Shown one piece after another: positions 7,342 to 40,002 of a stretch of 64,000 bases of DNA. A model generated the notes under the pieces. It did no database searches, was not told the DNA's origin, and saw only the letters and a program-made list of their open reading frames with translations. How positions within the stretch are numbered: position 1 is the first letter of the stretch; each line of letters starts with the position of its first letter. The stretch comes from SAR202 cluster bacterium Io17-Chloro-G2 (GTDB lineage: Bacteria; Chloroflexota; Dehalococcoidia; Lucifugimonadales; UBA3495): assembly GCA_002816875.1 (NCBI GenBank), contig MUCP01000012.1, positions 9,864 through 73,863 on the forward strand, written 5' to 3'. Position numbers and translations under genes: made by a program.

Positions 7342-8853
7342 TTATATCCCCGGCAGGGAGGCCACGCCCACGTTGATGACGCGCATCATAGGCTCGGGCC
7401 ACACTCCCACGCCGATCAATATGACTACGAAAACACCGCCCACGGCTTTTTCCACCGGGCTGGCGTCGGTGAGGTGCTCCCACCGGGGGTCCATCTCGCC
7501 AAGGAACGTGCGGGCCAATAACCTCAAGATATATACCGCCGTCAACGCCGCCCCCACCACCGCCAGAATGGCCAGCGGCAGATAGGTGCGGAACGCCCCC
7601 GTGAATACCATGAATTCGGCGATGAAACCGCTGAGGCCTGGAAGCCCCAACGACGCCAAACCCGCGATGGCAAAGAAGAAGCTATTCACACGCATCCGGC
7701 CGAACAATCCATTCAAAACGTAGATGTCCCGGATGTGCGCCCGGTCGTACACCGCTCCCACCAAGAGGAACATAAGGGCCGTCATGATCCCATGGGAGAA
7801 CATCTGCAGCACCGCGCCGCCGACGCCGATGGGATCGAGGGTGGCAATGCCCATGAGCACGTACCCCATGTGGCTCACGCTGGAATAACCCACAACGTAT
7901 TTGAGGTCCGTCTGGGACATTGCCGATACGGCGCCGTATAGCACGTTGACCGTGCCCAGGGTGATCAACAGGGGCATCCAGTTCTCTGCGCCCTCGGGCA
8001 GGAGCACCATGCCCACCCGGATGATGCCGTAAGCGCCCAGCTTCATCAGTACGCCGGCATGCAGCATACTCACCCCCGTGGGCGCCGCTACGTGCCCGTC
8101 GGGCGACCAGGTGTGGAACGGCCATAGGCCCGCCAAAACACCAAATCCAACCATGAAGAGGGGGAAAACCCAAGTCTGGAACTCCTCGCTGATACTGCCG
8201 CTGGCGGCCAGGTTCCCCAAATCCTCCAACGAGAAAGTGGGCGTACCCAGGGTGGCCGATTTCACGTACAAAGCCAGGATACCGATCCAGACCAGAATGC
8301 TTCCCGCGATCAGATACAGGAACAGTTTCATCGCGCTGTATTCTTTGGTCCGCAGGAAGGAGCCAAAGTCGGTGCTGCTGCCCCATACGCCGATCAGCAG
8401 ATACATGGGAAGCACCGCCAGCTCGTAGAAGAAGAACAGGAAGAACAGGTCCCGTACCACGAAAACGCCGAAAACCCCCGCTCCCAGGGCTTGCAACAAC
8501 ACGAAAAAATCCCGGGTCCGGGTGCGGATGGTCTGGGAGATCAAGACCGCGCCCAAAAGCACCAAGCCGTTGAGCAAGATGAGCGGAGCGGAAATCCCGT
8601 CCACCGCCAGGGATAGATCGATATTTATCGGGGCTTCGAGCCACTGGAACGATCGGGCCAGTTGAAAGCCGCCCGCGCCATAGTCGTAGCTGACAAAGAT
8701 GTACAGGGACAACAGCAGGCAAACAACTGAAACGCCAATGGCGAAATACCAAGCGTCTCCCGGCCTATCCTTGGGCAAGAACATGGTCAACACAGCCCCC
8801 AGCAAGGGAACCATGATGATCAAGAACAACGCCGTCTGTTCCAAGCTGCTCAT
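7342..8853 (-). CDS. nuoM: NADH-quinone oxidoreductase subunit M
   Basis: 503 aa antiporter-like membrane subunit. Position in the operon fits. Confidence 0.9.
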   Translation of the reverse strand: MSSLEQTALFLIIMVPLLGAVLTMFLPKDRPGDAWYFAIGVSVVCLLLSLYIFVSYDYGAGGFQLARSFQWLEAPINIDLSLAVDGISAPLILLNGLVLLGAVLISQTIRTRTRDFFVLLQALGAGVFGVFVVRDLFFLFFFYELAVLPMYLLIGVWGSSTDFGSFLRTKEYSAMKLFLYLIAGSILVWIGILALYVKSATLGTPTFSLEDLGNLAASGSISEEFQTWVFPLFMVGFGVLAGLWPFHTWSPDGHVAAPTGVSMLHAGVLMKLGAYGIIRVGMVLLPEGAENWMPLLITLGTVNVLYGAVSAMSQTDLKYVVGYSSVSHMGYVLMGIATLDPIGVGGAVLQMFSHGIMTALMFLLVGAVYDRAHIRDIYVLNGLFGRMRVNSFFFAIAGLASLGLPGLSGFIAEFMVFTGAFRTYLPLAILAVVGAALTAVYILRLLARTFLGEMDPRWEHLTDASPVEKAVGGVFVVILIGVGVWPEPMMRVINVGVASLPGI

Positions 8854-29109: not shown

Positions 29110-29988
29110 GTGGAGATAAAGACGGACCAACCCTTTGATTTGGCATCCTCGCTGGAGAGCGGGCAGGCCCACCGGTGGCGCCTGGACGGAGATTGGTACG
29201 CCGGGGTGGTCAGAGGAAATTTCATCAAGATGCGGCAAACCTGCGGAGGATTCGAGTTCCGGTCCCAACCCTCGGCAGAAGAAACTCTGGTCCCCATGCT
29301 TGAGGATTATTTCCGCCTGGACGACGATCTGCCGGCGATCTACGGAGAGATAAAGCAGGACCAGAGGGTAGCAACCATGGTGGACCAGTACCCCGGCCTG
29401 CGGGTGTTGCGCACAGAACCGTGGGAATGCTTGATTGCCTTCATCTGTTCCGCCAACAACAACATATCCCGCATCCACCAGTTGATGGAAAGGATGTCGG
29501 AGACGTTCGGCGAGCCCTTGCACTTGGACGGCCAGGTCCGGTACACCTTTCCCGGCCCGGCGGAACTGGCCGAGGGTGGTGAGATGGAGTTGCGCCGCCT
29601 GGGATTGGGTTTCCGGGCGCCCTACGTCGATCAGGCAGCCCGCCGGGTGCTGGAGGGCAACCTAGATCTAGACCAGCTTACCGTGGCTCCGTACCAAGAG
29701 GCCAAAGAGCGCCTGATGGAGTGCAAGGGCATTGGCTCGAAGATCGCCGATTGCATCGCCGTATTTTCCCTGGAAAAGTTAGAAGCATTCCCTATAGACG
29801 TTTGGATACGGCGGGCCCTGGCGGAATGGTATTTTCCAAACCAGAAAAAACCTTCGGATCGAGTACTTCTGGAGTGGGCCCAAAACTACTTCGGCCGCTA
29901 CGGAGGCTACTCGCAGCAGTACCTATTCCACGGTCGGCGGTTGGAGAAGGCACGACGGCAGGCAACTTCTTCCGAGACCGCGCAATAG
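29110..29988 (+). CDS. ogg: 8-oxoguanine DNA glycosylase/AP lyase (OGG1-type HhH-GPD)
   Basis: 292 aa, GTG start 13 nt after the dinG stop. Contains the HhH-GPD segment ECKGIGSKIADCIAVFSL...FPIDVWIRR with the Lys expected for bifunctional OGG. Confidence 0.75.
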   Translation: MEIKTDQPFDLASSLESGQAHRWRLDGDWYAGVVRGNFIKMRQTCGGFEFRSQPSAEETLVPMLEDYFRLDDDLPAIYGEIKQDQRVATMVDQYPGLRVLRTEPWECLIAFICSANNNISRIHQLMERMSETFGEPLHLDGQVRYTFPGPAELAEGGEMELRRLGLGFRAPYVDQAARRVLEGNLDLDQLTVAPYQEAKERLMECKGIGSKIADCIAVFSLEKLEAFPIDVWIRRALAEWYFPNQKKPSDRVLLEWAQNYFGRYGGYSQQYLFHGRRLEKARRQATSSETAQ

Positions 29989-31876: not shown

Positions 31877-32098
31877 TTATGGCCTGCGGCCGTAGAAGCA
31901 GTCGTCGCAAAGAAACACGATAGCCAGCGCTTCCTCGTGGCTGCCGATGCGGCCGCACTGGGGCACTTGGCTTTCCTCGCTCCACGGTTGATGGAATTTC
32001 CCGCCACACAACTGGCATGACGCCTGGTGCACTTCATCCAGGGTGTCCCCGCAGATCACGCAGGTTTCGGCTTCCAATTCTTCATCCATGACCGGCAT
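31877..32098 (-). CDS. Small Cys-rich zinc-ribbon-like protein, overlapping the end of the CCA-enzyme gene
   Basis: About 70-73 aa. Contains CVICGD...CQLCGG...C...CDDC (four Cys pairs or sites). Candidate ATGs at 32098 and 32089. ATG 32089 overlaps the upstream TGA (ATGGATGA). Confidence 0.5.
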   Translation of the reverse strand: MPVMDEELEAETCVICGDTLDEVHQASCQLCGGKFHQPWSEESQVPQCGRIGSHEEALAIVFLCDDCFYGRRP

Positions 32099-33314
32099 CC
32101 CCAATAGCCTCGGCCCCCACGGGACCCACGATGGTATCAGCCATCAATTCCTGTACCAAACGCCGCCGGCCGGCATCGGCGCCAGCCCCGCCATCCAACC
32201 GCCCATCCAACACCTCATCGCGCAACCGGCCCAAGATGCGGCCGACCAGGGGTCCCGGAGGCACACCGAGCTGCAACAAGTCCCGTCCGTCCAACCCAGG
32301 TTTAACGTGCCGCAGCTCAGTCAAAAACCGGTGCAGCCCCTGATTGACCCAGGCGTCTTCGCTGGTCAAGCCCATGGCCGCCACGGCTACCACGGAAACG
32401 TCTTCCAGAAGGCGAACCAAGCGTGATGGAGAGATAGATTCATCATTCAATTCGGCCGCCATACCCTGAAGCCTGATGGAGTCGCGGACGATACGGCGCC
32501 AACCCTCGGGCATGTTCAGGCGGCCGATCAAGTCCTCCCCTTCCTGTTCGGAAAGGTCCGAGACCAACGCCGCCAGATATACCATCGGAATCTCCGCTTC
32601 GATTTCGGCGCCAATATCGCCGATACCGGCGGCCAACCGCTGTAGTTTTCCCAGATCGTTAAGGGCGGGATGTACCGCCTGCAAAACTTCCAGATCCAAG
32701 CAACGGGCGAACGCAGGTGCGGGATTTTCTTCTTCCAGGATCCGCTGGATCTCGTGGCGAAGCCGGTCCGGGCTCAGGACGGCAACAAGACCCTGATCCA
32801 CTGAGTTTTTTAGGTGGGCAAGGGTCTGTTGGTCGATACGAAAGTCCAGGCGTTGCTCGTAGCGGATTGCCCGGAATACCCGGGTGGGGTCGTCGATGAA
32901 GCTGCAGTCGTGGAGGGTGCGCACTACGCCCAGCCGCAGGTCTTCCAATCCTCTCCAATGATCCAGGACCTCAGCGGCATCTCCCGCCAATGGTATTGCC
33001 ATGGCGTTGATAGAGAAATCACGGCGGGCCAAATCGTCCCGAATGCCGCTGGGAGTCACCTGGGGCAAAGCGCCGGGGTGCGTATAAGTCTCCCGCCGGG
33101 CGGTCACCAAGTCGATTCGCGTGCCCCCGGCAATCACGGTGGCGGTGCCGAACCGGGGGTGAACGATGGTTTTGCCGGCCAATTCGGCGGCCACCCGCTG
33201 GGCCAGCGCCGGAGCGTCGCCTTCCACCGAGAAATCCAAGTCTTTGACGGGCCGCCCCAAAAGAGCGTCGCGAACCGGTCCGCCCACAAGATAAACGGGC
33301 GAGTGTTGGTCCAA
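32082..33314 (-). CDS. cca: CCA-adding tRNA nucleotidyltransferase/poly(A) polymerase family protein
   Basis: 410 aa. Contains YLVGGPVRDALLGRPVKDLDF head-domain motif. The frame stays open for 38 codons upstream of TTG 33314 with no ATG/GTG/TTG, and that stretch (NLEALDALRRCAL) still looks family-like, so the start is uncertain. Confidence 0.8.
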   Translation of the reverse strand: MDQHSPVYLVGGPVRDALLGRPVKDLDFSVEGDAPALAQRVAAELAGKTIVHPRFGTATVIAGGTRIDLVTARRETYTHPGALPQVTPSGIRDDLARRDFSINAMAIPLAGDAAEVLDHWRGLEDLRLGVVRTLHDCSFIDDPTRVFRAIRYEQRLDFRIDQQTLAHLKNSVDQGLVAVLSPDRLRHEIQRILEEENPAPAFARCLDLEVLQAVHPALNDLGKLQRLAAGIGDIGAEIEAEIPMVYLAALVSDLSEQEGEDLIGRLNMPEGWRRIVRDSIRLQGMAAELNDESISPSRLVRLLEDVSVVAVAAMGLTSEDAWVNQGLHRFLTELRHVKPGLDGRDLLQLGVPPGPLVGRILGRLRDEVLDGRLDGGAGADAGRRRLVQELMADTIVGPVGAEAIGDAGHG

Positions 33315-33535: not shown

Positions 33536-33563
33536 TTGACAACCCAATCACAGGTGGTAAAAT
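33536..33563 (+). promoter_or_regulatory. Sigma-70-like promoter candidate for the DsbA-like/rnc/TIR/ftsY operon
   Basis: TTGACA (33536-33541), 16-nt spacer, TAAAAT (33558-33563). Confidence 0.5.
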
Positions 33564-33623: not shown

Positions 33624-34262
33624 ATGGTTGAGGCAGCATTCACCACCTACTACGATTTTCGTTGACCCTTCGTATACAATGCCGCCATGTGGCTGGCAAA
33701 AGTGGAATCGAGCACGGGGTCCAAGGTTGAAGTAGACTGGCAGCCCTTCGCCCTGGCCCAGGTCAACGCAGACAAAGATGCGGAACTAAAGGTCTGGGAA
33801 AGGCCGGATGTATTAGACGGGACCGATCCGATTTTCCTGGCCCACCGGTCGGGTCTGGCGGCCAAACGCCAGGGTAAAGAGGCCTTCGAGGCTTTCTTCA
33901 TCGCCCTGCTGAAGCAGCGCCACGAGGAAAAGGCCGACTTGAACGATCCCGACGTGATGAAGGCAGCGGCCACGACGGCCGGCTTGGACTTGGCTCGTTT
34001 TCTGGAAGACCAGGCCGACCCCGATCTACTCAAAGAGATTGGGGACAGCCACACCAAAGCGGTGGAAGAGTACGGCGCATTTGGGGTGCCCACATTTATC
34101 TTGCCCGGAGGCAAGACCGCTTTCGTGAAAATGTTCATACCTCCCGAAGAACAGGCGAGCGATATATACGACACCCTGACACATGTGATCAGCGAGTTTG
34201 ATCACGTAGGTGAAGTAAAGCGCCCGCAGCCGCCGTGGCCTCACGGAGTGATCAAGGGATAA
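33624..34262 (+). CDS. DsbA-family (FrnE/mycoredoxin-like) thioredoxin-fold protein with in-frame TGA at 33663-33665; candidate selenoprotein
   Basis: ATG 33624 is preceded by AGGAGG (33611-33616). Translation: MVEAAFTTYYDFR-TGA-PFVYNAAMWLAKVESS..., continuous with track ORF 33687-34262. The TGA sits where family members carry the CP(F/W)x redox Cys. Confidence 0.6.
33681..33697 (+). promoter_or_regulatory. SECIS-like hairpin
   Basis: GCCGCC-AUGU-GGCuGGC: 6 bp with one bulged U. It starts 15 nt after the TGA. Confidence 0.45.
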
Positions 34263-34265
34263 CAC

Positions 34266-34967
34266 GTGGCGAATCGGCTTCTAGAAGCGGATTTAGGCGT
34301 AAAGTTTCGTGAACCAGGGCTGCTCCAGCAAGCCCTGGTTCACCGTTCTTACCTCAACGAACAGGGCGGAAAGCCCTCGGACTCCTACGAACGGCTGGAA
34401 TTCCTGGGCGACGCAGTCATAGAACTGGCTGTGTCCACCCGGCTGTATGAGTTCTTGCCCAACCATTCCGAAGGCGACCTCACCAAGGCCCGCGCCACTT
34501 TGGTTTGCGGTGAAAGTCTGGCCGTGATCGCCCGCCGGCTGCGTCTAGGCGATCACGTCCTGTTGGGCAAGGGAGAGGAGGCCACCGGAGGCAGGGACAG
34601 AGAGTCCACTCTGGCCGCCACCATGGAAGCCGTCGTGGCCGCGGTATACCAGGATCAAGGCTTCGAAGCGGCTCGCAGCTTCGTTCTTCGCATCATGGCC
34701 CCGGAATTGGACCAATTCTTACTCCAAGGAACGGCGGCGGACAATCCCAAGTCCCGTCTCCAAGAACACATCCAGGGCCTGGGCCGCGCCACACCAAAGT
34801 ACCAACTTGCCTCAAGCACGGGGCCCGACCACGATCCCTGGTTTGAAGTGGAAGTCCTGGTGGAAAGCCAGGTGATCGGCAAAGGCCAAGGCGGGAAGAA
34901 GGCCGACGCCGAACGGGCGGCCGCCAACGACGCCCTGAACCGCATCGCGTCAGAACCAATCACCTAA
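34266..34967 (+). CDS. rnc: Ribonuclease III
   Basis: 233 aa. Contains ERLEFLGDAVIELAV catalytic signature and a C-terminal dsRBD-like segment. Confidence 0.95.
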   Translation: MANRLLEADLGVKFREPGLLQQALVHRSYLNEQGGKPSDSYERLEFLGDAVIELAVSTRLYEFLPNHSEGDLTKARATLVCGESLAVIARRLRLGDHVLLGKGEEATGGRDRESTLAATMEAVVAAVYQDQGFEAARSFVLRIMAPELDQFLLQGTAADNPKSRLQEHIQGLGRATPKYQLASSTGPDHDPWFEVEVLVESQVIGKGQGGKKADAERAAANDALNRIASEPIT

Positions 34968-34997: not shown

Positions 34998-36467
34998 ATG
35001 CCCCACCCACCACCCATGGCGTTCATGAGCTACGTGCGGTCCGACGACCAGCACGAGAACGGGCGTTTGACCCAGTTGCGGGAGCGCCTAAGCGCCGAAG
35101 TGCGGATGCAGACCGGGGAAGAGTTCCCGATCTTCCAAGACCGCGACGACATCCAGTGGGGCCAGAACTGGCGCCGCCGCATCGAAGAATCCGTCGACGA
35201 AGTCACTTTCTTCATCCCAATCATCACCCCTAGCTTTTTCCGGAGTGACGGCTGTTGCGATGAGCTCCGACAGTTCATCCAACGAGAGCTAGACCTTAAC
35301 CGGGACGACCTCATACTCCCTGTCTACTATGTCGATTGCCCTGTCCTGAATTCTCCCGAAGGGCGAGCAAACAACGATTTAGCCAGCGCGATAGCGAATC
35401 ATCAGTATACCGACTGGCGGGACCTTAGGTTTGAGCCCCTTACATCGCCGGATGTGGGTCGAATGTTTGCCAAGATGGCCGTCCAAATTCGGGACGCCTT
35501 GAACCGGGTACGCGATTCGCAACCGGCTGATATTGCCGCCGGTCCAACAGTTAACCTTAGCCTGCCTGACCCGGTAACCCAACCGGTACCGAACCTAGCA
35601 GAATCCTTAGCACAAATGGCAGAGGCTGCCCAAGGACCGTCTCCGAAGACTGAGACCCCCACCCGAATCGTAGACCCCATGGGCCGAGCCGATCACATCA
35701 CTATATCCGAGGCCATCCACGCGGCTGACCCCGGAGATAGGATTTTGGTCCGCCCTGGCCTCTACCAAGAGGGCCTGATAATCGACAAACCGTTGGAAAT
35801 AATCGGAGACGGCCCCCGTGACGACATTGTGGTGCAGGCGGTTAGAACTAATACACTATCCTTTCAAACGACCACAGGCAGAGTTTCTAACCTTAGTCTG
35901 CGCCAGACTAGCGGCAGTGGGTTTTGCGTGTACATAATTCAGGGATGGCTGTTGCTGGATAACTGCGACATCACAAGTGAGAGTCTGGCCTGTGTGGCTA
36001 TCCTCGGCGGCGCCGACCCCCGGCTTGTCCGTAACCGCATCCACGACGGGAACCGCAACGGAGTCTTTATCTACCAACGCGGCCTAGGGACCTTGGAAAA
36101 TAACGACATCTTTGGCAACGCATTTGCCGGTGTGGCGATTAGCAACTATGGCAATCCTGTTCTACGCCACAACCGTATCCACGACGGGAAAACGACTGGT
36201 ATCTCCGTGTATGACAACGGACTAGGCGCTTTGGAAGACAACGACATCTTCGGCAATATTTGGTCCGGCCTTTTAATCAGAAACGAAGGAAATCCCACCG
36301 TACGAGGGAACCGTATCAACAAGAATGGGTGCCACGGCGTATGTGTCATTGAAAGCGGCGGCGGCACAGTAGTAGACAACGACCTCCGGGACAACGCCCT
36401 TGGCGCATGGAGGATCTCAGAAGACAGTGAGCCCTTAGTCAAACGCGCCCGCAACCTGGAAGAATGA
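34998..36467 (+). CDS. TIR-domain protein fused to right-handed parallel beta-helix (PbH1/CASH-like) repeats
   Basis: 489 aa. Residues ~8-135, AFMSYVRSDD...IFQDRDDIQWGQNW...FFIPIITPSFFRSDGCCDELRQF, fit the bacterial TIR_2 pattern. Residues ~225-489 start with ITISEAIHAADPGDRILVRPGLYQEGLIIDKPLEIIG, followed by repeated GNxxxGVxIxNxGNPVLRxNRIHDG units. Confidence 0.75.
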   Translation: MPHPPPMAFMSYVRSDDQHENGRLTQLRERLSAEVRMQTGEEFPIFQDRDDIQWGQNWRRRIEESVDEVTFFIPIITPSFFRSDGCCDELRQFIQRELDLNRDDLILPVYYVDCPVLNSPEGRANNDLASAIANHQYTDWRDLRFEPLTSPDVGRMFAKMAVQIRDALNRVRDSQPADIAAGPTVNLSLPDPVTQPVPNLAESLAQMAEAAQGPSPKTETPTRIVDPMGRADHITISEAIHAADPGDRILVRPGLYQEGLIIDKPLEIIGDGPRDDIVVQAVRTNTLSFQTTTGRVSNLSLRQTSGSGFCVYIIQGWLLLDNCDITSESLACVAILGGADPRLVRNRIHDGNRNGVFIYQRGLGTLENNDIFGNAFAGVAISNYGNPVLRHNRIHDGKTTGISVYDNGLGALEDNDIFGNIWSGLLIRNEGNPTVRGNRINKNGCHGVCVIESGGGTVVDNDLRDNALGAWRISEDSEPLVKRARNLEE

Positions 36468-36490: not shown

Positions 36491-37447
36491 ATGTTCGGCC
36501 TGTTTAAACGCAATCAAGAGGAAAACCAGCGGCAGACCCGGGAAGGGGTCAAGCGCAGCCAGGAACGCTGGTTCGGGCGGATCATGGGGCTTTTGCAATC
36601 TTCCCGGTTGGACGACGCCCTTTGGGATGAGTTGGAAGAGATCCTTATTTCCGCCGACGTGGGAGTATCCACCACCCAGAGCATCATCGAAGACCTGCGC
36701 GGCCAGGTGGACGGCAAGAGATTGGAGGACCCCGGCCAGGTCTTCGATAGCCTGAAGGAATCTTTGACCCGGGACTTGGCGAATCAGGAATCGCCGGACA
36801 TTTGGCTGGACGACGAGGACGCCCCGTCGCCTTACGTGATCCTGGTGGTGGGGGTCAATGGGGTGGGAAAGACCACCAGTATCGCCAAGCTGGCCCACCA
36901 TTTCAAACAGGCGGGCAAGAAGGTCGTGTTGGGGGCGGCGGACACATTTCGGGCTGCCGCCAGCGATCAACTAGAGATCCTGGGCGAGCGGGTAGGCGTA
37001 GATGTAATAAGCCATCAGTCCGGCTCCGACCCCGGCGCGGTGGCCTACGACGCCTATCAGGCCAGTCAAGCCAGGGGGGCCGACGTGCTGATCGTCGACA
37101 CCGCCGGCCGGTTGCACACCAGGTCCAACCTGATGGAAGAGTTGAAAAAGGTGCAGCGGGTCCTGACCAGGTTGGATTCCACCGCGCCTCATCAAGTGAT
37201 CCTCACGTTGGACGCCACCACCGGCCACAACGGCCTGGCCCAGGCCAAATCGTTCAAGGAAGCCGTGGGCTGCACCGGTATCTTCCTGGCCAAGCTGGAC
37301 GGAACGGCCCGCGGCGGCATAGCTCTGGCCATCACCCAGGAGCTGCAGGTGCCAATACTGTTCATCGGCACGGGAGAGGGCTTGGACGACATGGCCCCGT
37401 TCGACACCAAGGATTTCATCGAGTCCTTGCTGGCGCCGGTGGCCTGA
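36491..37447 (+). CDS. ftsY: Signal recognition particle receptor FtsY
   Basis: 318 aa. Contains GVNGVGKTTSIAKLA, DTAGRL and AKLDGTARGG GTPase motifs. Confidence 0.95.
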   Translation: MFGLFKRNQEENQRQTREGVKRSQERWFGRIMGLLQSSRLDDALWDELEEILISADVGVSTTQSIIEDLRGQVDGKRLEDPGQVFDSLKESLTRDLANQESPDIWLDDEDAPSPYVILVVGVNGVGKTTSIAKLAHHFKQAGKKVVLGAADTFRAAASDQLEILGERVGVDVISHQSGSDPGAVAYDAYQASQARGADVLIVDTAGRLHTRSNLMEELKKVQRVLTRLDSTAPHQVILTLDATTGHNGLAQAKSFKEAVGCTGIFLAKLDGTARGGIALAITQELQVPILFIGTGEGLDDMAPFDTKDFIESLLAPVA

Positions 37448-37545: not shown

Positions 37546-40002
37546 GTGTTCGACGCTTTAGTTTGGATCTTAGCCGTTGAGCTGCTGGGTCTGCTGGCCT
37601 TTCCGCTGGCCTTCGTTCTTTTTCACCGGTTGCCCGACCGGGGATTCACCGTTGCCAAGCCGCTGGCGTTGATACTGTTCTCCTATGCGCTTTGGATCTT
37701 GGGGTTGACCCACCTCATTGCCAACACACGGTTCACCATCGTCGGAATCCTGGCGGTCTGCGCGGTCATATCCGCCTTGGTATTGAAGAACCAGGCCCAA
37801 AATATCAAGGCGTTCTTCAAAATGGAATGGCGTTTGGTGGCGGCCGGCGAGGCTGTATTTCTGCTGTTCTTCGTGCTGTGGGCTGCCATAGCTTCGGAAT
37901 CCCCGGCCATAACCCACACTGAAAAACCCATGGATTTCGGGTTTCTCAACGCCGTACTCCAGAGCCGCTTCTTCCCCCCAGAAGACCCTTGGCTGGCCGG
38001 CCACTCCATCAGCTATTACTATTTCGGACACTTCACCATGGCATTGGTGGTCAAGCTCACCGGGATTTCATCCGCCGTGGGATATAACCTGGCGGTCTCG
38101 CTGGTCCCGGCCCTGTTGGCCACCGGGGCCATGGGTTTGCTGTATAACCTGATCCGCCTATCCGGGGCGGGCAGGCCTCGGGCGGTGTTTTTCGCCCTGG
38201 CGGCGCCGGCAATGATAATCCTTCTTGGAAATTTGGAAGGCACCCTGGAGTTTGTCCACCTTCGGGGTTGGGGGAGCGCTGGATTCTGGGATTGGGCCGG
38301 CATAAAAGGGCTTACCGGTTTGAATGGCGCCACGGCCTCAGGCCTGTTCCCCAGCGACCCCTGGTGGTGGTGGCGGGCCACCCGGGTCATTGACACAGTG
38401 GCCGGCGGGCATAGCTTGGATTACACCATCACCGAGTTTCCATTCTTCAGCTTCTTGCTGGGCGACCTTCACCCCCACGTCCTGGGCCTGCCCTTCGTGG
38501 TGCTCGGCATTTCCTTATGTTTTAACCTGTTTCTGATCCGCGATGCGCCGGGCTTGAGCTGGCTGAGGAAGCATCCGCTGGAATCCCTGGCGATGGCCTT
38601 CTTCGTAGGGTCCTTGGCCTTCATCAACACATGGGACTTTCCCCTGCTTGCCGGGATCCTAGGGGCCGTGATCCTGGCCAGAAGCTATGCAGCCCAGAAT
38701 GGAGCTCTGGGCAGGGCCGCGTCCCAGGCCGCCATCATGTTTGCTCCTCTCTTGGTCTTGTCGGTGGCGATGTTTCTGCCTTTTTACCTGGGCTTCGGCT
38801 CCCAGGCTTCGGGGATATTGCCTTTGCAAGACCACCCAACCCGGCCCGTCCTGTTTTTTCTGGTGATGGGTCTGTTTTCCTTCGTGGGGATTTCCTTCGT
38901 TTTGGGCCAGTTGGGGAACCTGGGCCTTACCCGTTTGAGCTTTCGCGGCATTCTCCGCGCGCGCCAGGGGGAGGACATACAGGATGAAGGTTCTGAATAT
39001 GACGCGCCGGCGGCCCTGGCGATCGGCCTGTTCACCCTGGCGCCCTTGGCACTATGGATCGCCTTGGTCTGGGTTTGGACGCTGTTCACCGGCGGGCCGG
39101 CGGCGGCAATCGCAGAGGTGGCGGGCCGAACGGTCTGGGTCCTGCCAGGTTTGGCTCTGGTGGCCATGGCCGGATACAGCGCTATACGCCTGTCCCGACT
39201 GGAAAAAGATTTGGCTTCCGCTTTCCCGTTGGTCCTCTTCGCCGCCGCTTTTTTCCTCATCGCCGGCGCCGAGTTATTTTACGTGGCCGACTCCTTCGGC
39301 GGGGGATACCGCCGGATGAACACTGTTTTCAAGGTTTACTATCAGGGTTGGCTGCTGTTGGGGTTGGTGGCTGCCTACGGAATCTATCACTGGTTTTCCA
39401 GCCCGGAAACCAACGGAGATTCACCGGCCAATAGTGTTCGGGTCTGGGCCGGGAAGGCAGGCCGGGGCCTCTGGGCCGGGAGCTTGGTCTTACTGGTCTT
39501 GGCGTCGCTATACTATCCGGCGGGAGCCGCGCTGGACCGAACCGGCTGGCTGGGACGAAACCATACGCTGTCCGCCAACACCCTCGACGGCCTGGATTTT
39601 CTGAAAAGCCAGCAGCCGGGGGAATACGCCGCCATCCAATGGCTGCGGGACGACGCCCCATGGGGCAGGCTGGCCGAGGCGGTGGGCAGCGACTACTCGG
39701 ACTACGGCCGAATATCCTCCAGCACTGGCCTGCCCGCCATTCTGGGCTGGAAGGGCCATGAGCTCCAGTGGCGGGGCTCGTCGCGGCTCTTTGACGGCCG
39801 GGAGACGGATGTCGCGAAGATATACCAGAGCCCAAGTGAAGAAGAGGTCCGGCAGATCCTAGAGAGATATCAGGTGCGCTACGTCTATCTGGGACACAGG
39901 GAGATCTCCAGTTACGGAGGGGAAACATTGGCGGGATTCGCCAACTTGTTAAGAACCGCCTTCACCGCCGATGGCGTAATAATCTACGAGAGGTTACCCT
40001 GA
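37546..40002 (+). CDS. DUF2298/Chlor_Arch_YYY (TIGR03662-type) integral membrane protein
   Basis: 818 aa, highly hydrophobic. Contains TEKPMDFGFLNAVLQSRFFPPEDPWLAGHSISYYYFGH with the family-defining YYYxG motif. Confidence 0.8.
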   Translation: MFDALVWILAVELLGLLAFPLAFVLFHRLPDRGFTVAKPLALILFSYALWILGLTHLIANTRFTIVGILAVCAVISALVLKNQAQNIKAFFKMEWRLVAAGEAVFLLFFVLWAAIASESPAITHTEKPMDFGFLNAVLQSRFFPPEDPWLAGHSISYYYFGHFTMALVVKLTGISSAVGYNLAVSLVPALLATGAMGLLYNLIRLSGAGRPRAVFFALAAPAMIILLGNLEGTLEFVHLRGWGSAGFWDWAGIKGLTGLNGATASGLFPSDPWWWWRATRVIDTVAGGHSLDYTITEFPFFSFLLGDLHPHVLGLPFVVLGISLCFNLFLIRDAPGLSWLRKHPLESLAMAFFVGSLAFINTWDFPLLAGILGAVILARSYAAQNGALGRAASQAAIMFAPLLVLSVAMFLPFYLGFGSQASGILPLQDHPTRPVLFFLVMGLFSFVGISFVLGQLGNLGLTRLSFRGILRARQGEDIQDEGSEYDAPAALAIGLFTLAPLALWIALVWVWTLFTGGPAAAIAEVAGRTVWVLPGLALVAMAGYSAIRLSRLEKDLASAFPLVLFAAAFFLIAGAELFYVADSFGGGYRRMNTVFKVYYQGWLLLGLVAAYGIYHWFSSPETNGDSPANSVRVWAGKAGRGLWAGSLVLLVLASLYYPAGAALDRTGWLGRNHTLSANTLDGLDFLKSQQPGEYAAIQWLRDDAPWGRLAEAVGSDYSDYGRISSSTGLPAILGWKGHELQWRGSSRLFDGRETDVAKIYQSPSEEEVRQILERYQVRYVYLGHREISSYGGETLAGFANLLRTAFTADGVIIYERLP

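What the first reader, a model, noticed from the sequence alone, without database searches (positions are those of the whole stretch)
34998..36467. A TIR domain fused to beta-helix repeats is embedded in the rnc-ftsY housekeeping operon: candidate single-gene NAD-targeting or immune-like module
The N-terminal ~130 aa fit the bacterial TIR pattern, including a Glu in CCDELRQF at the position of the (W/C)xxE motif that supplies the catalytic Glu in NAD-cleaving TIR domains. After a Pro-rich linker of about 90 aa, the C-terminal ~260 aa are right-handed parallel beta-helix repeats, a fold typically used for carbohydrate or surface binding and hence a plausible sensor. The gene has no signal peptide. 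It sits 30 nt after rnc and 23 nt before ftsY, on the same strand and apparently driven by the promoter at 33536. No partner gene such as a ThsA-like or other effector is nearby, and this is not a classical defence island. I do not know of a characterised system with a TIR plus beta-helix architecture.
Basis: partly seen in the sequence, partly recalled or inferred. Interest (0 to 1): 0.75.

Follow-up and report, generated by a model that had tools for sequence, protein, structure and literature searches.

The report
Stand-alone TIR enzyme with beta-helix sensor
A real, uncharacterised gene wedged between two housekeeping genes of a SAR202 (Chloroflexota) bacterium joins an NAD-cleaving-type TIR domain to a repeat "beta-helix" with one fast-evolving face; it belongs to a large family scattered across bacteria and archaea that looks like a one-protein immune receptor, though its function has never been tested.

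Summary
ORF 34998-36467 (+) encodes 489 aa: a TIR domain (aa 7-174), a disordered linker of about 45 aa (not about 90), and a capped right-handed CASH/FBXO11-like beta-helix (aa 220-489). It lies 30 nt after rnc and 23 nt before ftsY.

Glu89 aligns with the catalytic Glu135 of flax L6/L7 TIR, and Cys86 with plant Cys132. Both are invariant in 150 clade representatives.

The gene is an accessory insertion. One SAR202 relative keeps rnc-TIR-ftsY. Three others have the same backbone with the slot empty, non-coding, or holding a toxin-antitoxin-like pair.

The architecture is not unique. I found at least 1659 homologous 90% clusters in at least 153 species, including Streptomyces, Acidobacteriota, cable bacteria and methanogenic archaea. 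None has a conserved partner gene.

The same TIR clade is fused to many unrelated C-terminal modules (WD40, TPR, FGE-sulfatase and others). The same beta-helix also occurs alone or fused to EAD1. One face of the helix is hypervariable (dN/dS about 0.9, against about 0.2 elsewhere).

Best reading, confidence 0.5: a self-contained sensor-effector in which ligand binding switches on TIR NAD+ cleavage.

Against it: no defence-island, phage or plasmid association, and no biochemical data. I found no paper on this architecture.

The parts
34998..36467 (+). Whole TIR-linker-beta-helix gene (489 aa plus stop). NCBI calls the start at Met7 (35016).
35016..35519 (+). TIR domain, aa 7-174 (beta-A 7-11 to the long alpha-E helix 151-173).
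   Evidence: Pfam TIR_2/TIR. AF2 TIR-only model, pLDDT 86.4. Foldseek top hits RPPT, L6, SNC1, SPARTA TIR-APAZ, RPP1, SARM1, AbTir.
35253..35264 (+). Cys86-Cys87-Asp88-Glu89. Invariant C-x-x-E; Glu89 is the predicted catalytic Glu, and Cys86 is the equivalent of plant L7 Cys132.
   Evidence: Alignments to L6/L7, AtTIR and 7uxr. Invariant in A1, A2 and A3. Roles of L7 C132/E135 from bioRxiv 10.1101/2021.11.09.467869.
35520..35654 (+). Disordered, moderately Pro-rich linker, aa 175-219. Length and sequence vary across the family.
   Evidence: pLDDT below 50 for 175-219. Poorly aligned columns in A1.
35655..36032 (+). N-terminal cap and first coils of the right-handed beta-helix, aa 220-345 (TRIVDP..GDRILVRPGLY..PLEIIGDG..CDITS..).
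36033..36446 (+). Three 46-aa double CASH repeats, aa 346-483 (NRIHDGxxxGVxVxxxGxGxLExNDIFGNxxxGVxIxxxGNPxLRx). Hypervariable outward positions lie on the GVxVxx strand face.
   Evidence: Repeat entropy. dN/dS 0.92 at variable positions against 0.20 at scaffold positions.
36447..36467 (+). Family-conserved C-terminal end ...RNLE(E)-COOH and the stop codon.
   Evidence: A1 alignment: nearly all members stop right after R-x-x-N-x-E.
34266..34967 (+). rnc (RNase III), upstream flank. It ends 30 nt before the gene.
   Evidence: Pfam, sequence
36491..37447 (+). ftsY (SRP receptor), downstream flank. It starts 23 nt after the gene.
   Evidence: Pfam, sequence
33536..33563 (+). Sigma-70-like promoter match upstream of the dsbA-like gene. 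It may drive dsbA-rnc-TIR-ftsY-DUF2298. Consensus match only.
   Evidence: No terminator-like site on the + strand between 34000 and 37590.

Best explanation
The gene encodes a cytoplasmic, self-contained sensor-effector protein of a biological-conflict (immune-like) type.

The N-terminal TIR domain is the enzymatic effector. It is predicted to cleave NAD(P)+, using Glu89, once TIR domains are brought together. The C-terminal CASH beta-helix is the regulatory or recognition module. Its scaffold is rigid and conserved, but one face carries fast-evolving residues that would bind an invader-derived or danger ligand, more likely a protein or polymer than a small molecule.

Ligand binding would release autoinhibition and/or drive oligomerisation through the flexible linker. 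That would switch on NAD+ depletion, causing growth arrest or abortive infection, and possibly production of ADPR-derived or 2',3'-cNMP products.

In this SAR202 lineage the gene was acquired horizontally into a variable slot between rnc and ftsY. It is probably co-transcribed constitutively with them.

**Shown:** gene, folds, catalytic-residue conservation, accessory and inserted status, lack of partner genes, modular domain swapping, variable face.

**Inferred:** enzymatic activity, activation by ligand-induced assembly, immune role.
For: 1. **TIR identity and active site.** Pfam hits are above cut-off. The structure matches NADase-type TIRs. Glu89 and Cys86 align with L7 E135 and C132. Both are invariant in the 150 best clade representatives. 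The TIR is under purifying selection, dN/dS 0.17.
2. **Constant effector with variable partner.** The TIR-only search gave 4195 representatives. Of the best 150 (up to 70% identical in the TIR), only 30 carry the beta-helix. The other 120 have mostly mutually unrelated C-terminal regions, including WD40, TPR, FGE-sulfatase and NB-ARC-like P-loops. FGE-sulfatase and WD40 are described as sensors of bacterial STAND receptors in PMC13581612.
3. **Variable face on the beta-helix.** Among 591 unique repeat units, positions 8, 9, 12, 14 and 31, 35, 37, 38 have about 3 bits of entropy, while scaffold positions are near-invariant. Between the two syntenic SAR202 orthologues these positions are 17% identical with dN/dS 0.92, against 70% and 0.20 for the remaining repeat positions.
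4. **CASH precedent.** In FBXO11 the CASH beta-helix is the substrate-recognition module (PMC8825234). JGI pipelines label many family members 'F-box protein 11'.
5. **Accessory, horizontally spread gene.** It is present in the window and in L085. It is absent from the same slot in L088 (empty), L090 (non-coding) and L089 (DUF4258 plus an MqsA-like pair). Distribution is patchy, at 45-68% identity, across bacterial phyla and archaea. Several genomes carry 2-3 paralogues.
6. **Single-gene system.** No conserved neighbour appears in 84 loci. No defence partner lies in the 64-kb window.
7. **Module in conflict-type systems.** The same beta-helix module is also fused to EAD1, an adaptor of predicted conflict systems (PMC7159879).
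Against: - There are no biochemical or genetic data for any member, and I found no paper on it.
- There is no defence-island signal. Only scattered, mostly generic PADLOC hits occur among 289 nearest-neighbour ORFs of about 75 loci.
- The family was not found in IMG/VR viral contigs. No full-length copy occurs on PLSDB plasmids.
- PADLOC and NCBIfam place it in no known system.
- Sequence conservation across phyla is unusually high for an immune receptor.
- The hypervariable face could simply be unconstrained surface. An omega of about 0.9 on 36 codons, with dS near saturation, is not proof of positive selection.
- The EAD1 fusion could mean the beta-helix is itself an effector rather than a sensor.
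Confidence: 0.5

Rival explanations
1. Signal-generating TIR, ThsB-like. The protein senses a trigger through the beta-helix and makes a cADPR-isomer or other nucleotide signal. That signal activates an effector encoded elsewhere in the genome.
For: The catalytic Glu is intact. NCBIfam gives weak TIR-level similarity to Thoeris type III ThcB4 and to the retron-TIR model. Many bacterial TIRs are signal producers (established knowledge of Thoeris).
Against: No ThsA, SIR2, SLOG, Macro or caspase-like partner lies in the window. No conserved neighbour appears in 84 loci. The PADLOC ThsB hit has E 0.018 and falls in the beta-helix, not the TIR. Prokaryotic signal and effector pairs are normally linked.
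Confidence: 0.15
2. The beta-helix is the working end, as an enzyme or a sequestering or binding effector. The N-terminal TIR serves mainly as a homotypic adaptor or oligomerisation domain that plugs the protein into multi-component conflict networks, as EAD1 does in the sister architecture.
For: The same capped beta-helix is fused to EAD1 (P0232, P0223; 61 bits against a cut-off of 24.2). According to PMC7159879, EAD1 mostly carries effectors. The beta-helix also exists alone (P0158, P0192). Invariant non-glycine residues in the cap and first coils (Q303, C323, D324, S327) could form a site.
Against: Cys and Glu of the TIR active site are invariant in all 150 representatives, which argues for catalysis rather than a pure adaptor. 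The TIR clade is combined with dozens of unrelated C-terminal modules, the signature of a constant effector. No carbohydrate-active family is matched above its cut-off: AlgG 12.6 against 700 bits, NosD family 42 against 300 bits.
Confidence: 0.15
3. A non-immune, NAD-linked stress or programmed-cell-death switch, for example kin or colony-level control in filamentous or aggregate-forming prokaryotes. It would respond to an endogenous ligand rather than an invader.
For: There is no defence-island, phage or plasmid association. In Pyrinomonadaceae the gene is stably syntenic next to pyrimidine-catabolism genes. Many hosts are filamentous or multicellular: Streptomyces, cable bacteria, Methanothrix. 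This echoes the bias reported for related systems in PMC7159879.
Against: The hypervariable recognition face, the paralogue expansions and the patchy horizontal distribution fit an arms race better than sensing of a conserved endogenous ligand.
Confidence: 0.13
4. A housekeeping partner of RNase III or FtsY, acting in RNA processing or protein targeting, because it sits inside their operon.
For: Tight spacing on the same strand (30 nt and 23 nt). One Streptomyces genome also has a homologue about 1.5 kb downstream of rnc.
Against: Three SAR202 relatives with the same backbone lack it. Only 1 of 84 other loci has rnc nearby, and none has ftsY.
Confidence: 0.02
5. A secreted or surface carbohydrate-binding or carbohydrate-degrading protein (NosD/AlgG/pectate-lyase type) with a decorative TIR.
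For: The beta-helix fold matches AlgE4, Pel9A, pectin methylesterases and phage tailspikes.
Against: There is no signal peptide or TM segment, and the TIR begins at residue 7 (direct reading). All specific carbohydrate-enzyme and NosD models score far below their cut-offs. The fold matches show 10-18% identity only.
Confidence: 0.02

Closest known systems
Bacterial and archaeal TIR NADase effectors of antiphage systems (Thoeris ThsB, SPARTA TIR-APAZ, TIR-STING/TIR-SAVED, PycTIR, AbTir-type proteins)
   Same: TIR fold. The catalytic Glu is at the equivalent position at the start of helix alpha-C. Structural matches to SPARTA TIR-APAZ and AbTir. Activation by assembly is expected.
   Different: No Argonaute, STING, SAVED, cyclase or ThsA partner. 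The TIR is N-terminal to a CASH beta-helix. No PADLOC or NCBIfam system model is met. It carries the plant-like Cys at position -3, where 7uxr has Thr; AbTIR also has Thr there.
Plant TIR immune receptors (TNLs such as L6/L7, RPP1, SNC1; TIR-only RBA1)
   Same: These are the best sequence and structure matches for the TIR. They share the C-x-x-E signature (L7 C132/E135). The logic is the same: an N-terminal TIR plus a C-terminal solenoid repeat with variable surface positions.
   Different: No NB-ARC NTPase lies between the TIR and the repeats. The repeat is a right-handed beta-helix, not an LRR. TIR identity is only about 18%. The host is prokaryotic.
FBXO11/FBXO10 CASH beta-helix (substrate receptor of SCF E3 ligases)
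   Same: The same type of 23-aa/46-aa CASH repeat. JGI's KO-based annotation calls many members 'F-box protein 11'. Both are modelled on or match AlgG. In FBXO11 the CASH domains recognise protein substrates (PMC8825234).
   Different: No F-box or UBR domain; a TIR sits at the N-terminus instead. I did not align directly to FBXO11 because no sequence was available in the tools.
EAD- and TIR-containing 'conflict systems of multicellular prokaryotes' (Kaur, Burroughs, Iyer & Aravind 2020/2021)
   Same: The same beta-helix module is fused to EAD1. The TIR clade is fused to WD40, TPR and FGE-sulfatase, as in those systems. Host range overlaps (Streptomyces, cyanobacteria, Chloroflexota).
   Different: No vWA-MoxR, STAND or GTPase core is next to the gene. 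The two papers do not mention a beta-helix or CASH module.
FxsC (TIR-like protein of the FxSxx-COOH system)
   Same: It is the best NCBIfam hit for the TIR part (aa 6-138, E 2e-12).
   Different: It scores 47.4 bits against a cut-off of 130. No FxsA, FxsB or FxsD genes are nearby.

Membership tests
TIR domain superfamily (Pfam TIR_2 / TIR) | Profile match above the curated gathering score | tested here: met
   TIR_2 41.1 bits (cut-off 28); TIR 26.2 bits (cut-off 21.3).
TIR domain superfamily (Pfam TIR_2 / TIR) | Flavodoxin-like TIR fold | tested here: met
   AF2 TIR-only model, pLDDT 86.4. Foldseek probability 1.00 to L6, SNC1, RPP1, SPARTA, SARM1 and AbTir TIRs.
Catalytic (NAD+-cleaving) TIR domains | Conserved catalytic Glu at the start of helix alpha-C | tested here: met
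   Glu89 aligns with L7/L6 Glu135 and the Glu of AtTIR and 7uxr. Invariant in A1-A4.
Catalytic (NAD+-cleaving) TIR domains | Measured NAD(P)+ hydrolase or cyclase activity abolished by the Glu mutant | not testable with these tools
   Needs biochemistry.
Thoeris (ThsB plus ThsA) | ThsB-family TIR with an adjacent ThsA (SIR2/SLOG or Macro/TM) effector | tested here: not met
   The PADLOC ThsB hit has E 0.018 and lies in the beta-helix region. No ThsA-like gene in the window. No conserved neighbour in 84 loci.
Right-handed parallel beta-helix / CASH repeat proteins | Beta_helix/PbH1 repeat profile and fold | tested here: met
   Beta_helix 133 bits, TIGR03804 with 5 repeats. Foldseek hits AlgE4, Pel9A and pectin methylesterases.
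NosD (periplasmic N2O-reductase maturation) | Family model above cut-off, signal peptide, nos operon context | tested here: not met
   TIGR04247 scores 42 bits against a cut-off of 300. No signal peptide (direct reading). No nos genes nearby.
FxsC (FxSxx-COOH system) | NF040588 above cut-off and Fxs operon | tested here: not met
   47.4 bits against a cut-off of 130. Flanking genes are rnc and ftsY.
Anti-phage defence genes in general (guilt by association) | Enrichment next to known defence genes, or carriage on mobile elements | tested here: inconclusive
   289 nearest-neighbour ORFs of about 75 loci gave only scattered, mostly generic PADLOC hits. No viral-contig hits and no full-length plasmid hits. 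However, the SAR202 slot holds a TA-like pair in a relative. Only two genes per side were sampled.
EAD-coupled conflict systems (Kaur et al. 2020) | EAD domain on the protein and a cognate EAD on a neighbouring core NTPase or vWA component | tested here: not met
   The window protein has no EAD. EAD1 occurs only in sister proteins P0232 and P0223. There is no core system in the window.

The most novel reading that the evidence does not exclude
TIR-CASH proteins are a large, so far unrecognised class of NTPase-less, single-chain pattern-recognition receptors of bacteria and archaea.

- An FBXO11-type beta-helix with one hypervariable face would play the role that LRRs play in plant TNLs. It would directly bind invader proteins or polymers.
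- A plant-like C-x-x-E TIR would then destroy NAD+ or make 2',3'-cNMP or cADPR-type products.
- The family would also mark the prokaryotic source of the eukaryotic FBXO10/11 substrate-recognition domain.
- It would show that such receptors can live as constitutive passengers inside housekeeping operons rather than in defence islands.
Probability: 0.3. Interest if true: 0.8.

Novelty: new variant of a known kind. Interest (0 to 1): 0.55.

Why it matters
If the model is right, this is a new sensor type (a CASH beta-helix) for TIR-based immunity. It occurs in at least 150 species of bacteria and archaea, yet current defence-finding tools miss it because it is a lone gene outside defence islands.

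It would widen the set of prokaryotic one-protein receptors. It would give a tractable system for asking how a solenoid sensor switches on a TIR without an NTPase. It would also link plant-type TIR chemistry (C-x-x-E) and the animal FBXO11 recognition domain to prokaryotic ancestors.

For SAR202 biology, it shows that the rnc-ftsY junction is a small hotspot for accessory and conflict genes.

Tried and rejected
- **Conserved partner gene.** I clustered all ORFs of 84 homologous loci (±10 kb). Only shadow ORFs of the gene itself and abundant families (ABC ATPase, SDR, Zn-ADH, thymidine phosphorylase) recur, at variable distances. Rejected.
- **Synteny with rnc/ftsY outside SAR202.** Only Streptomyces sp. 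SLBN-118 has rnc nearby, and none has ftsY. I treat this as coincidence.
- **Defence-island association.** PADLOC on the other 50 ORFs of the window gave only generic DinG, DEDDh and similar hits. PADLOC on 289 neighbour ORFs gave no signal.
- **Phage or plasmid carriage.** None found. Structural matches to viral proteins are generic tailspike or depolymerase beta-helices.
- **Recent horizontal transfer by composition.** GC 0.560 and GC3 0.642 against gene means of 0.594 and 0.700 (z -1.5 and -0.7) is not an outlier.
- **Literature.** Seven full-text searches, plus targeted reading of five papers for a TIR plus beta-helix/CASH architecture (the TIR survey, the two Aravind-lab papers, the 2026 STAND paper and the FBXO11 paper), found no description of it.
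- **AFDB fold search.** The library was unavailable.
- **Beta-helix proteins without a Pfam TIR.** Several (P0122, P0124, P0133, P0163) turned out to be N-terminally truncated TIRs rather than new architectures.
Full report
**1. The observation**

The ORF 34998-36467 (+) is real and encodes 489 aa. An identical protein, called from Met7 at 483 aa, is deposited as a hypothetical protein of 'SAR202 cluster bacterium Io17-Chloro-G2'.

Pfam gives four hits above their cut-offs:
- TIR_2: 41.1 bits (cut-off 28), aa 27-141.
- TIR: 26.2 bits (cut-off 21.3), aa 9-175.
- Beta_helix: 133 bits.
- NosD: 52 bits.

- a DsbA-like gene, 33687-34262
- rnc, 34266-34967
- ftsY, 36491-37447
- a DUF2298 membrane protein, 37546-40002
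- a divergent CCA/poly(A)-polymerase-type gene, 32082-33314 (-)

The gaps of 30 nt and 23 nt are exact. A sigma-70-like match (TTGACA-16-TAAAAT) lies at 33536. No terminator-like site lies on the + strand inside the cluster apart from a weak one at 33977.

The AlphaFold model (pLDDT 83.9) shows three parts:
- a TIR domain, aa 7-174
- a disordered linker, aa 175-219
- a right-handed beta-helix, aa 220-489

There is no signal peptide, because the TIR beta-A strand begins at residue 7.

**2. The TIR domain**

By sequence, the closest solved structures are the flax L6/L7 TIRs, a bacterial TIR (7uxr) and AtTIR.

In these alignments, and in a profile built from 120 relatives:
- Glu89 pairs with the Glu of 'WCLMEL', 'WCLDEL' and 'WTEYEL'.
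- Cys86 pairs with the plant Cys.

According to bioRxiv 10.1101/2021.11.09.467869:
- L7 Glu135 is the NADase catalytic residue.
- AbTIR has Thr at that position.

A TIR-only model (pLDDT 86.4) matches RPPT, L6, SNC1, SPARTA TIR-APAZ, RPP1, SARM1 and AbTir.

**3. The family**

*Size and spread.*
- The full-length search found 1659 clusters with E ≤ 1e-3 among the scored candidates. The best 120 all have TIR_2 plus Beta_helix, cover 94-100% of the query, and are 42-68% identical.
- A scan of one genome per species found at least 153 species.
- Hosts include Dehalococcoidia, Anaerolineae, many Acidobacteriota, Streptomyces and other Actinomycetota, cable bacteria (Electronema, Electrothrix), Bradyrhizobium, Pseudomonas botevensis, Massilia, Cyanobacteria and Verrucomicrobiota.
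- Archaeal hosts include Methanoperedens, Methanothrix, Methanosarcinales and Hadesarchaea.
- Several genomes hold 2-3 copies.

*Sequence features.*
- Members differ mainly in the number of 46-aa double repeats and in the linker.
- Nearly all end at ...R-x-x-N-x-E-COOH.
- JGI pipelines name many of them 'F-box protein 11'.
- In FBXO11 the CASH beta-helices are the substrate-recognition domains and are modelled on AlgG (PMC8825234). AlgG is also the best PDB sequence hit here.

**4. Genomic context**

*No partner gene.* I clustered all ORFs in 84 loci (±8-10 kb). No conserved partner appears; only shadow ORFs and abundant families recur. In Pyrinomonadaceae the gene is vertically syntenic downstream of pyrimidine-catabolism genes.

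*rnc and ftsY.* rnc is nearby only in Streptomyces sp. SLBN-118, and ftsY is nearby nowhere. The gene is therefore not tied to rnc/ftsY.

*Within SAR202.* The closest homologue (P0065, 68% identity) sits on a 1.7-kb contig whose ends encode the tail of rnc and the start of ftsY. The arrangement is therefore inherited within a sublineage.

Three other relatives have the same cca(-)-dsbA-rnc-[slot]-ftsY-DUF2298 backbone but a different slot:

| Locus | Slot length | Content |
|---|---|---|
| L088 | about 130 bp | a 15-bp tandem repeat |
| L090 | about 400 bp | non-coding, repeat-like |
| L089 | 1.3 kb | DUF4258 gene plus an MqsA/YgiT-like zinc-ribbon gene (toxin-antitoxin-like) |

*Age of the insertion.* Composition is only mildly lower than the neighbours (GC 0.560 against 0.594). 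This fits an old acquisition.

**5. Modularity**

*TIR searched alone.*
- Against 1.84 billion representatives the TIR has 4195 relatives, 734 of them at E ≤ 1e-30.
- Of the best 150, only 30 carry the beta-helix.
- The other 120 carry C-terminal (sometimes N-terminal) regions that are mostly unrelated to one another.
- All 120 hit TIR_2. After that come WD40 (5), FGE-sulfatase (3), TPR (3) and more than 100 other families at low counts.
- By eye the extras include NB-ARC-like P-loops, a GGDEF-like region, TM segments and extra TIR copies.
- Cys and Glu of the C-x-x-E motif are invariant in all 150.

*Beta-helix searched alone.* The same capped beta-helix also occurs on its own (P0158, P0192). 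It is also fused to EAD1 (P0232, P0223). EAD1 is described as a homotypic adaptor of predicted conflict systems (PMC7159879).

A constant TIR with swappable partner domains is the pattern expected for an effector joined to alternative sensor or regulatory modules. FGE-sulfatase and WD40 domains are shown as sensors of bacterial STAND receptors in PMC13581612.

**6. The repeat surface**

I took 591 unique 46-aa units from 120 proteins.
- Scaffold positions are almost invariant: N1, I3, G10, V11, G17, G19, E22, N24, N29, G33, I36, P42 and R45.
- Positions 8, 9, 12, 14 and 31, 35, 37, 38 reach about 3 bits of entropy.
- In the model these variable positions are the outward residues of the stacked 'GVxVxx' strands plus the preceding turn, which together form one face.
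- The conserved charged residues on the other two faces (R2/D25, E22/R45) alternate from coil to coil. They are probably salt-bridge ladders (inference from the DSSP pattern).

Comparison of the window gene with its syntenic orthologue:

| Region | dN/dS | aa identity |
|---|---|---|
| TIR | 0.17 | not computed here |
| Cap | 0.22 | not computed here |
| Scaffold repeat positions | 0.20 | 70% |
| Hypervariable positions (36 codons) | 0.92 | 17% |

This fits a diversifying or unconstrained recognition face. With dS near 1 and few codons, it does not prove positive selection.

**7. Evidence against an immune role**

- PADLOC on the other 50 ORFs of the window finds only generic hits such as a DinG-DEDDh helicase.
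- PADLOC on 289 nearest-neighbour ORFs of about 75 family loci finds scattered, mostly generic hits: ATPases, MotB, a cysteine desulfurase, and one unrelated TIR effector.
- No relatives occur in IMG/VR viral contigs, and no full-length copy occurs on PLSDB plasmids.
- The protein meets no PADLOC or NCBIfam system model.
- I found no publication on the architecture.

**8. Conclusion**

The most likely reading (confidence 0.5) is a stand-alone sensor-effector:
- a catalytic, plant-like C-x-x-E TIR
- held in check and then activated through a CASH beta-helix that recognises a variable ligand
- causing NAD+ loss or nucleotide-signal production

In this SAR202 lineage the gene was acquired long ago into a small variable slot of the rnc-ftsY cluster and is probably co-transcribed with it.

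The rivals are:
- a ThsB-like signal producer with an unlinked effector (0.15)
- the beta-helix as the real effector, with the TIR as adaptor (0.15)
- a non-immune NAD-linked death or stress switch (0.13)
- housekeeping or secreted carbohydrate roles (about 0.02 each, essentially excluded)

The family is a new variant of a known kind, a TIR joined to a sensor, rather than a new category. Its interest lies in its breadth, its conservation, its unusual sensor fold and its invisibility to island-based defence discovery.

Noticed in passing
L089:6700-8000 (SAR202-like metagenome contig Ga0194132_10002645): The rnc-ftsY slot of a relative holds a DUF4258 ORF (7406-7576, 26.3 bits) and an MqsA/YgiT-like zinc-ribbon ORF (7730-7960, below cut-off). 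This is a toxin-antitoxin-like pair at the very place where the window has the TIR gene.
   Followed up: partly
L088:735-805 and L090:6712-7100: In two other relatives the slot is non-coding. L088 has a 15-bp tandem repeat (CAGTAATCCCACCAA, 4-5 copies) right after the rnc stop. L090 has about 400 bp with a GC-rich palindromic, MITE-like element.
   Followed up: no
L002:5620-10118 (Streptomyces sp. SLBN-118, VFNP01000001.1): A 705-aa family member also lies in the rpmF-rnc-fpg-...-smc neighbourhood, about 1.5 kb downstream of rnc. It is the only such case among 84 non-SAR202 loci, so it is probably coincidence. It is still a second independent occurrence near rnc.
   Followed up: partly
window:36447-36464 and alignment A1: Nearly all family members terminate exactly after a conserved ...V-K-R-A-R-N-x-E motif, so the free C-terminus seems to be part of the conserved cap. 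Its significance is unknown.
   Followed up: no
proteins P0232, P0223 (Chloroflexota and metagenome): The same capped beta-helix is fused to EAD1 (PF19955) in place of the TIR. The contigs are too short to see whether an EAD1-bearing core system is adjacent.
   Followed up: partly
proteins P0241, P0242, P0319, P0336: Members of the same TIR clade carry two or three tandem TIR domains in one polypeptide.
   Followed up: no
L050:9965-11863; proteins P0122, P0124, P0133, P0163: One homologue is split by a frameshift. Several database entries lack the N-terminal half of the TIR. These are either decaying copies or miscalled starts.
   Followed up: no
L001/L003/L007/L008/L013/L014/L016/L020 (Pyrinomonadaceae): In this family the gene is stably syntenic just downstream of dihydropyrimidine dehydrogenase-type genes (preT/preA-like). 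It also lies near a Carb_kinase (NAD(P)HX dehydratase-type) gene. This indicates vertical inheritance, and a link to nucleotide or NAD metabolism was not examined.
   Followed up: no
window:34998-35018: There is start-codon ambiguity. NCBI starts the protein at Met7 (483 aa). The upstream ATG gives MPHPPPM..., and the same MPxPPPM prefix is conserved in the orthologue on L085.
   Followed up: partly
window:31877-32104 (-): A 75-aa Cys-rich ORF (several CxxC pairs, zinc-ribbon-like) lies between the Zn-ADH gene and the CCA-adding enzyme gene. I did not analyse it.
   Followed up: no
window:26172-29096 (+): A 974-aa fusion of a DEDDh (RNase T-type) exonuclease to a DinG-type helicase, followed by an OGG1-like glycosylase (29110-29988). 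It gives the only strong PADLOC hits in the window (typeIV_DinG/DEDDh models), but it looks like a housekeeping DinG.
   Followed up: partly
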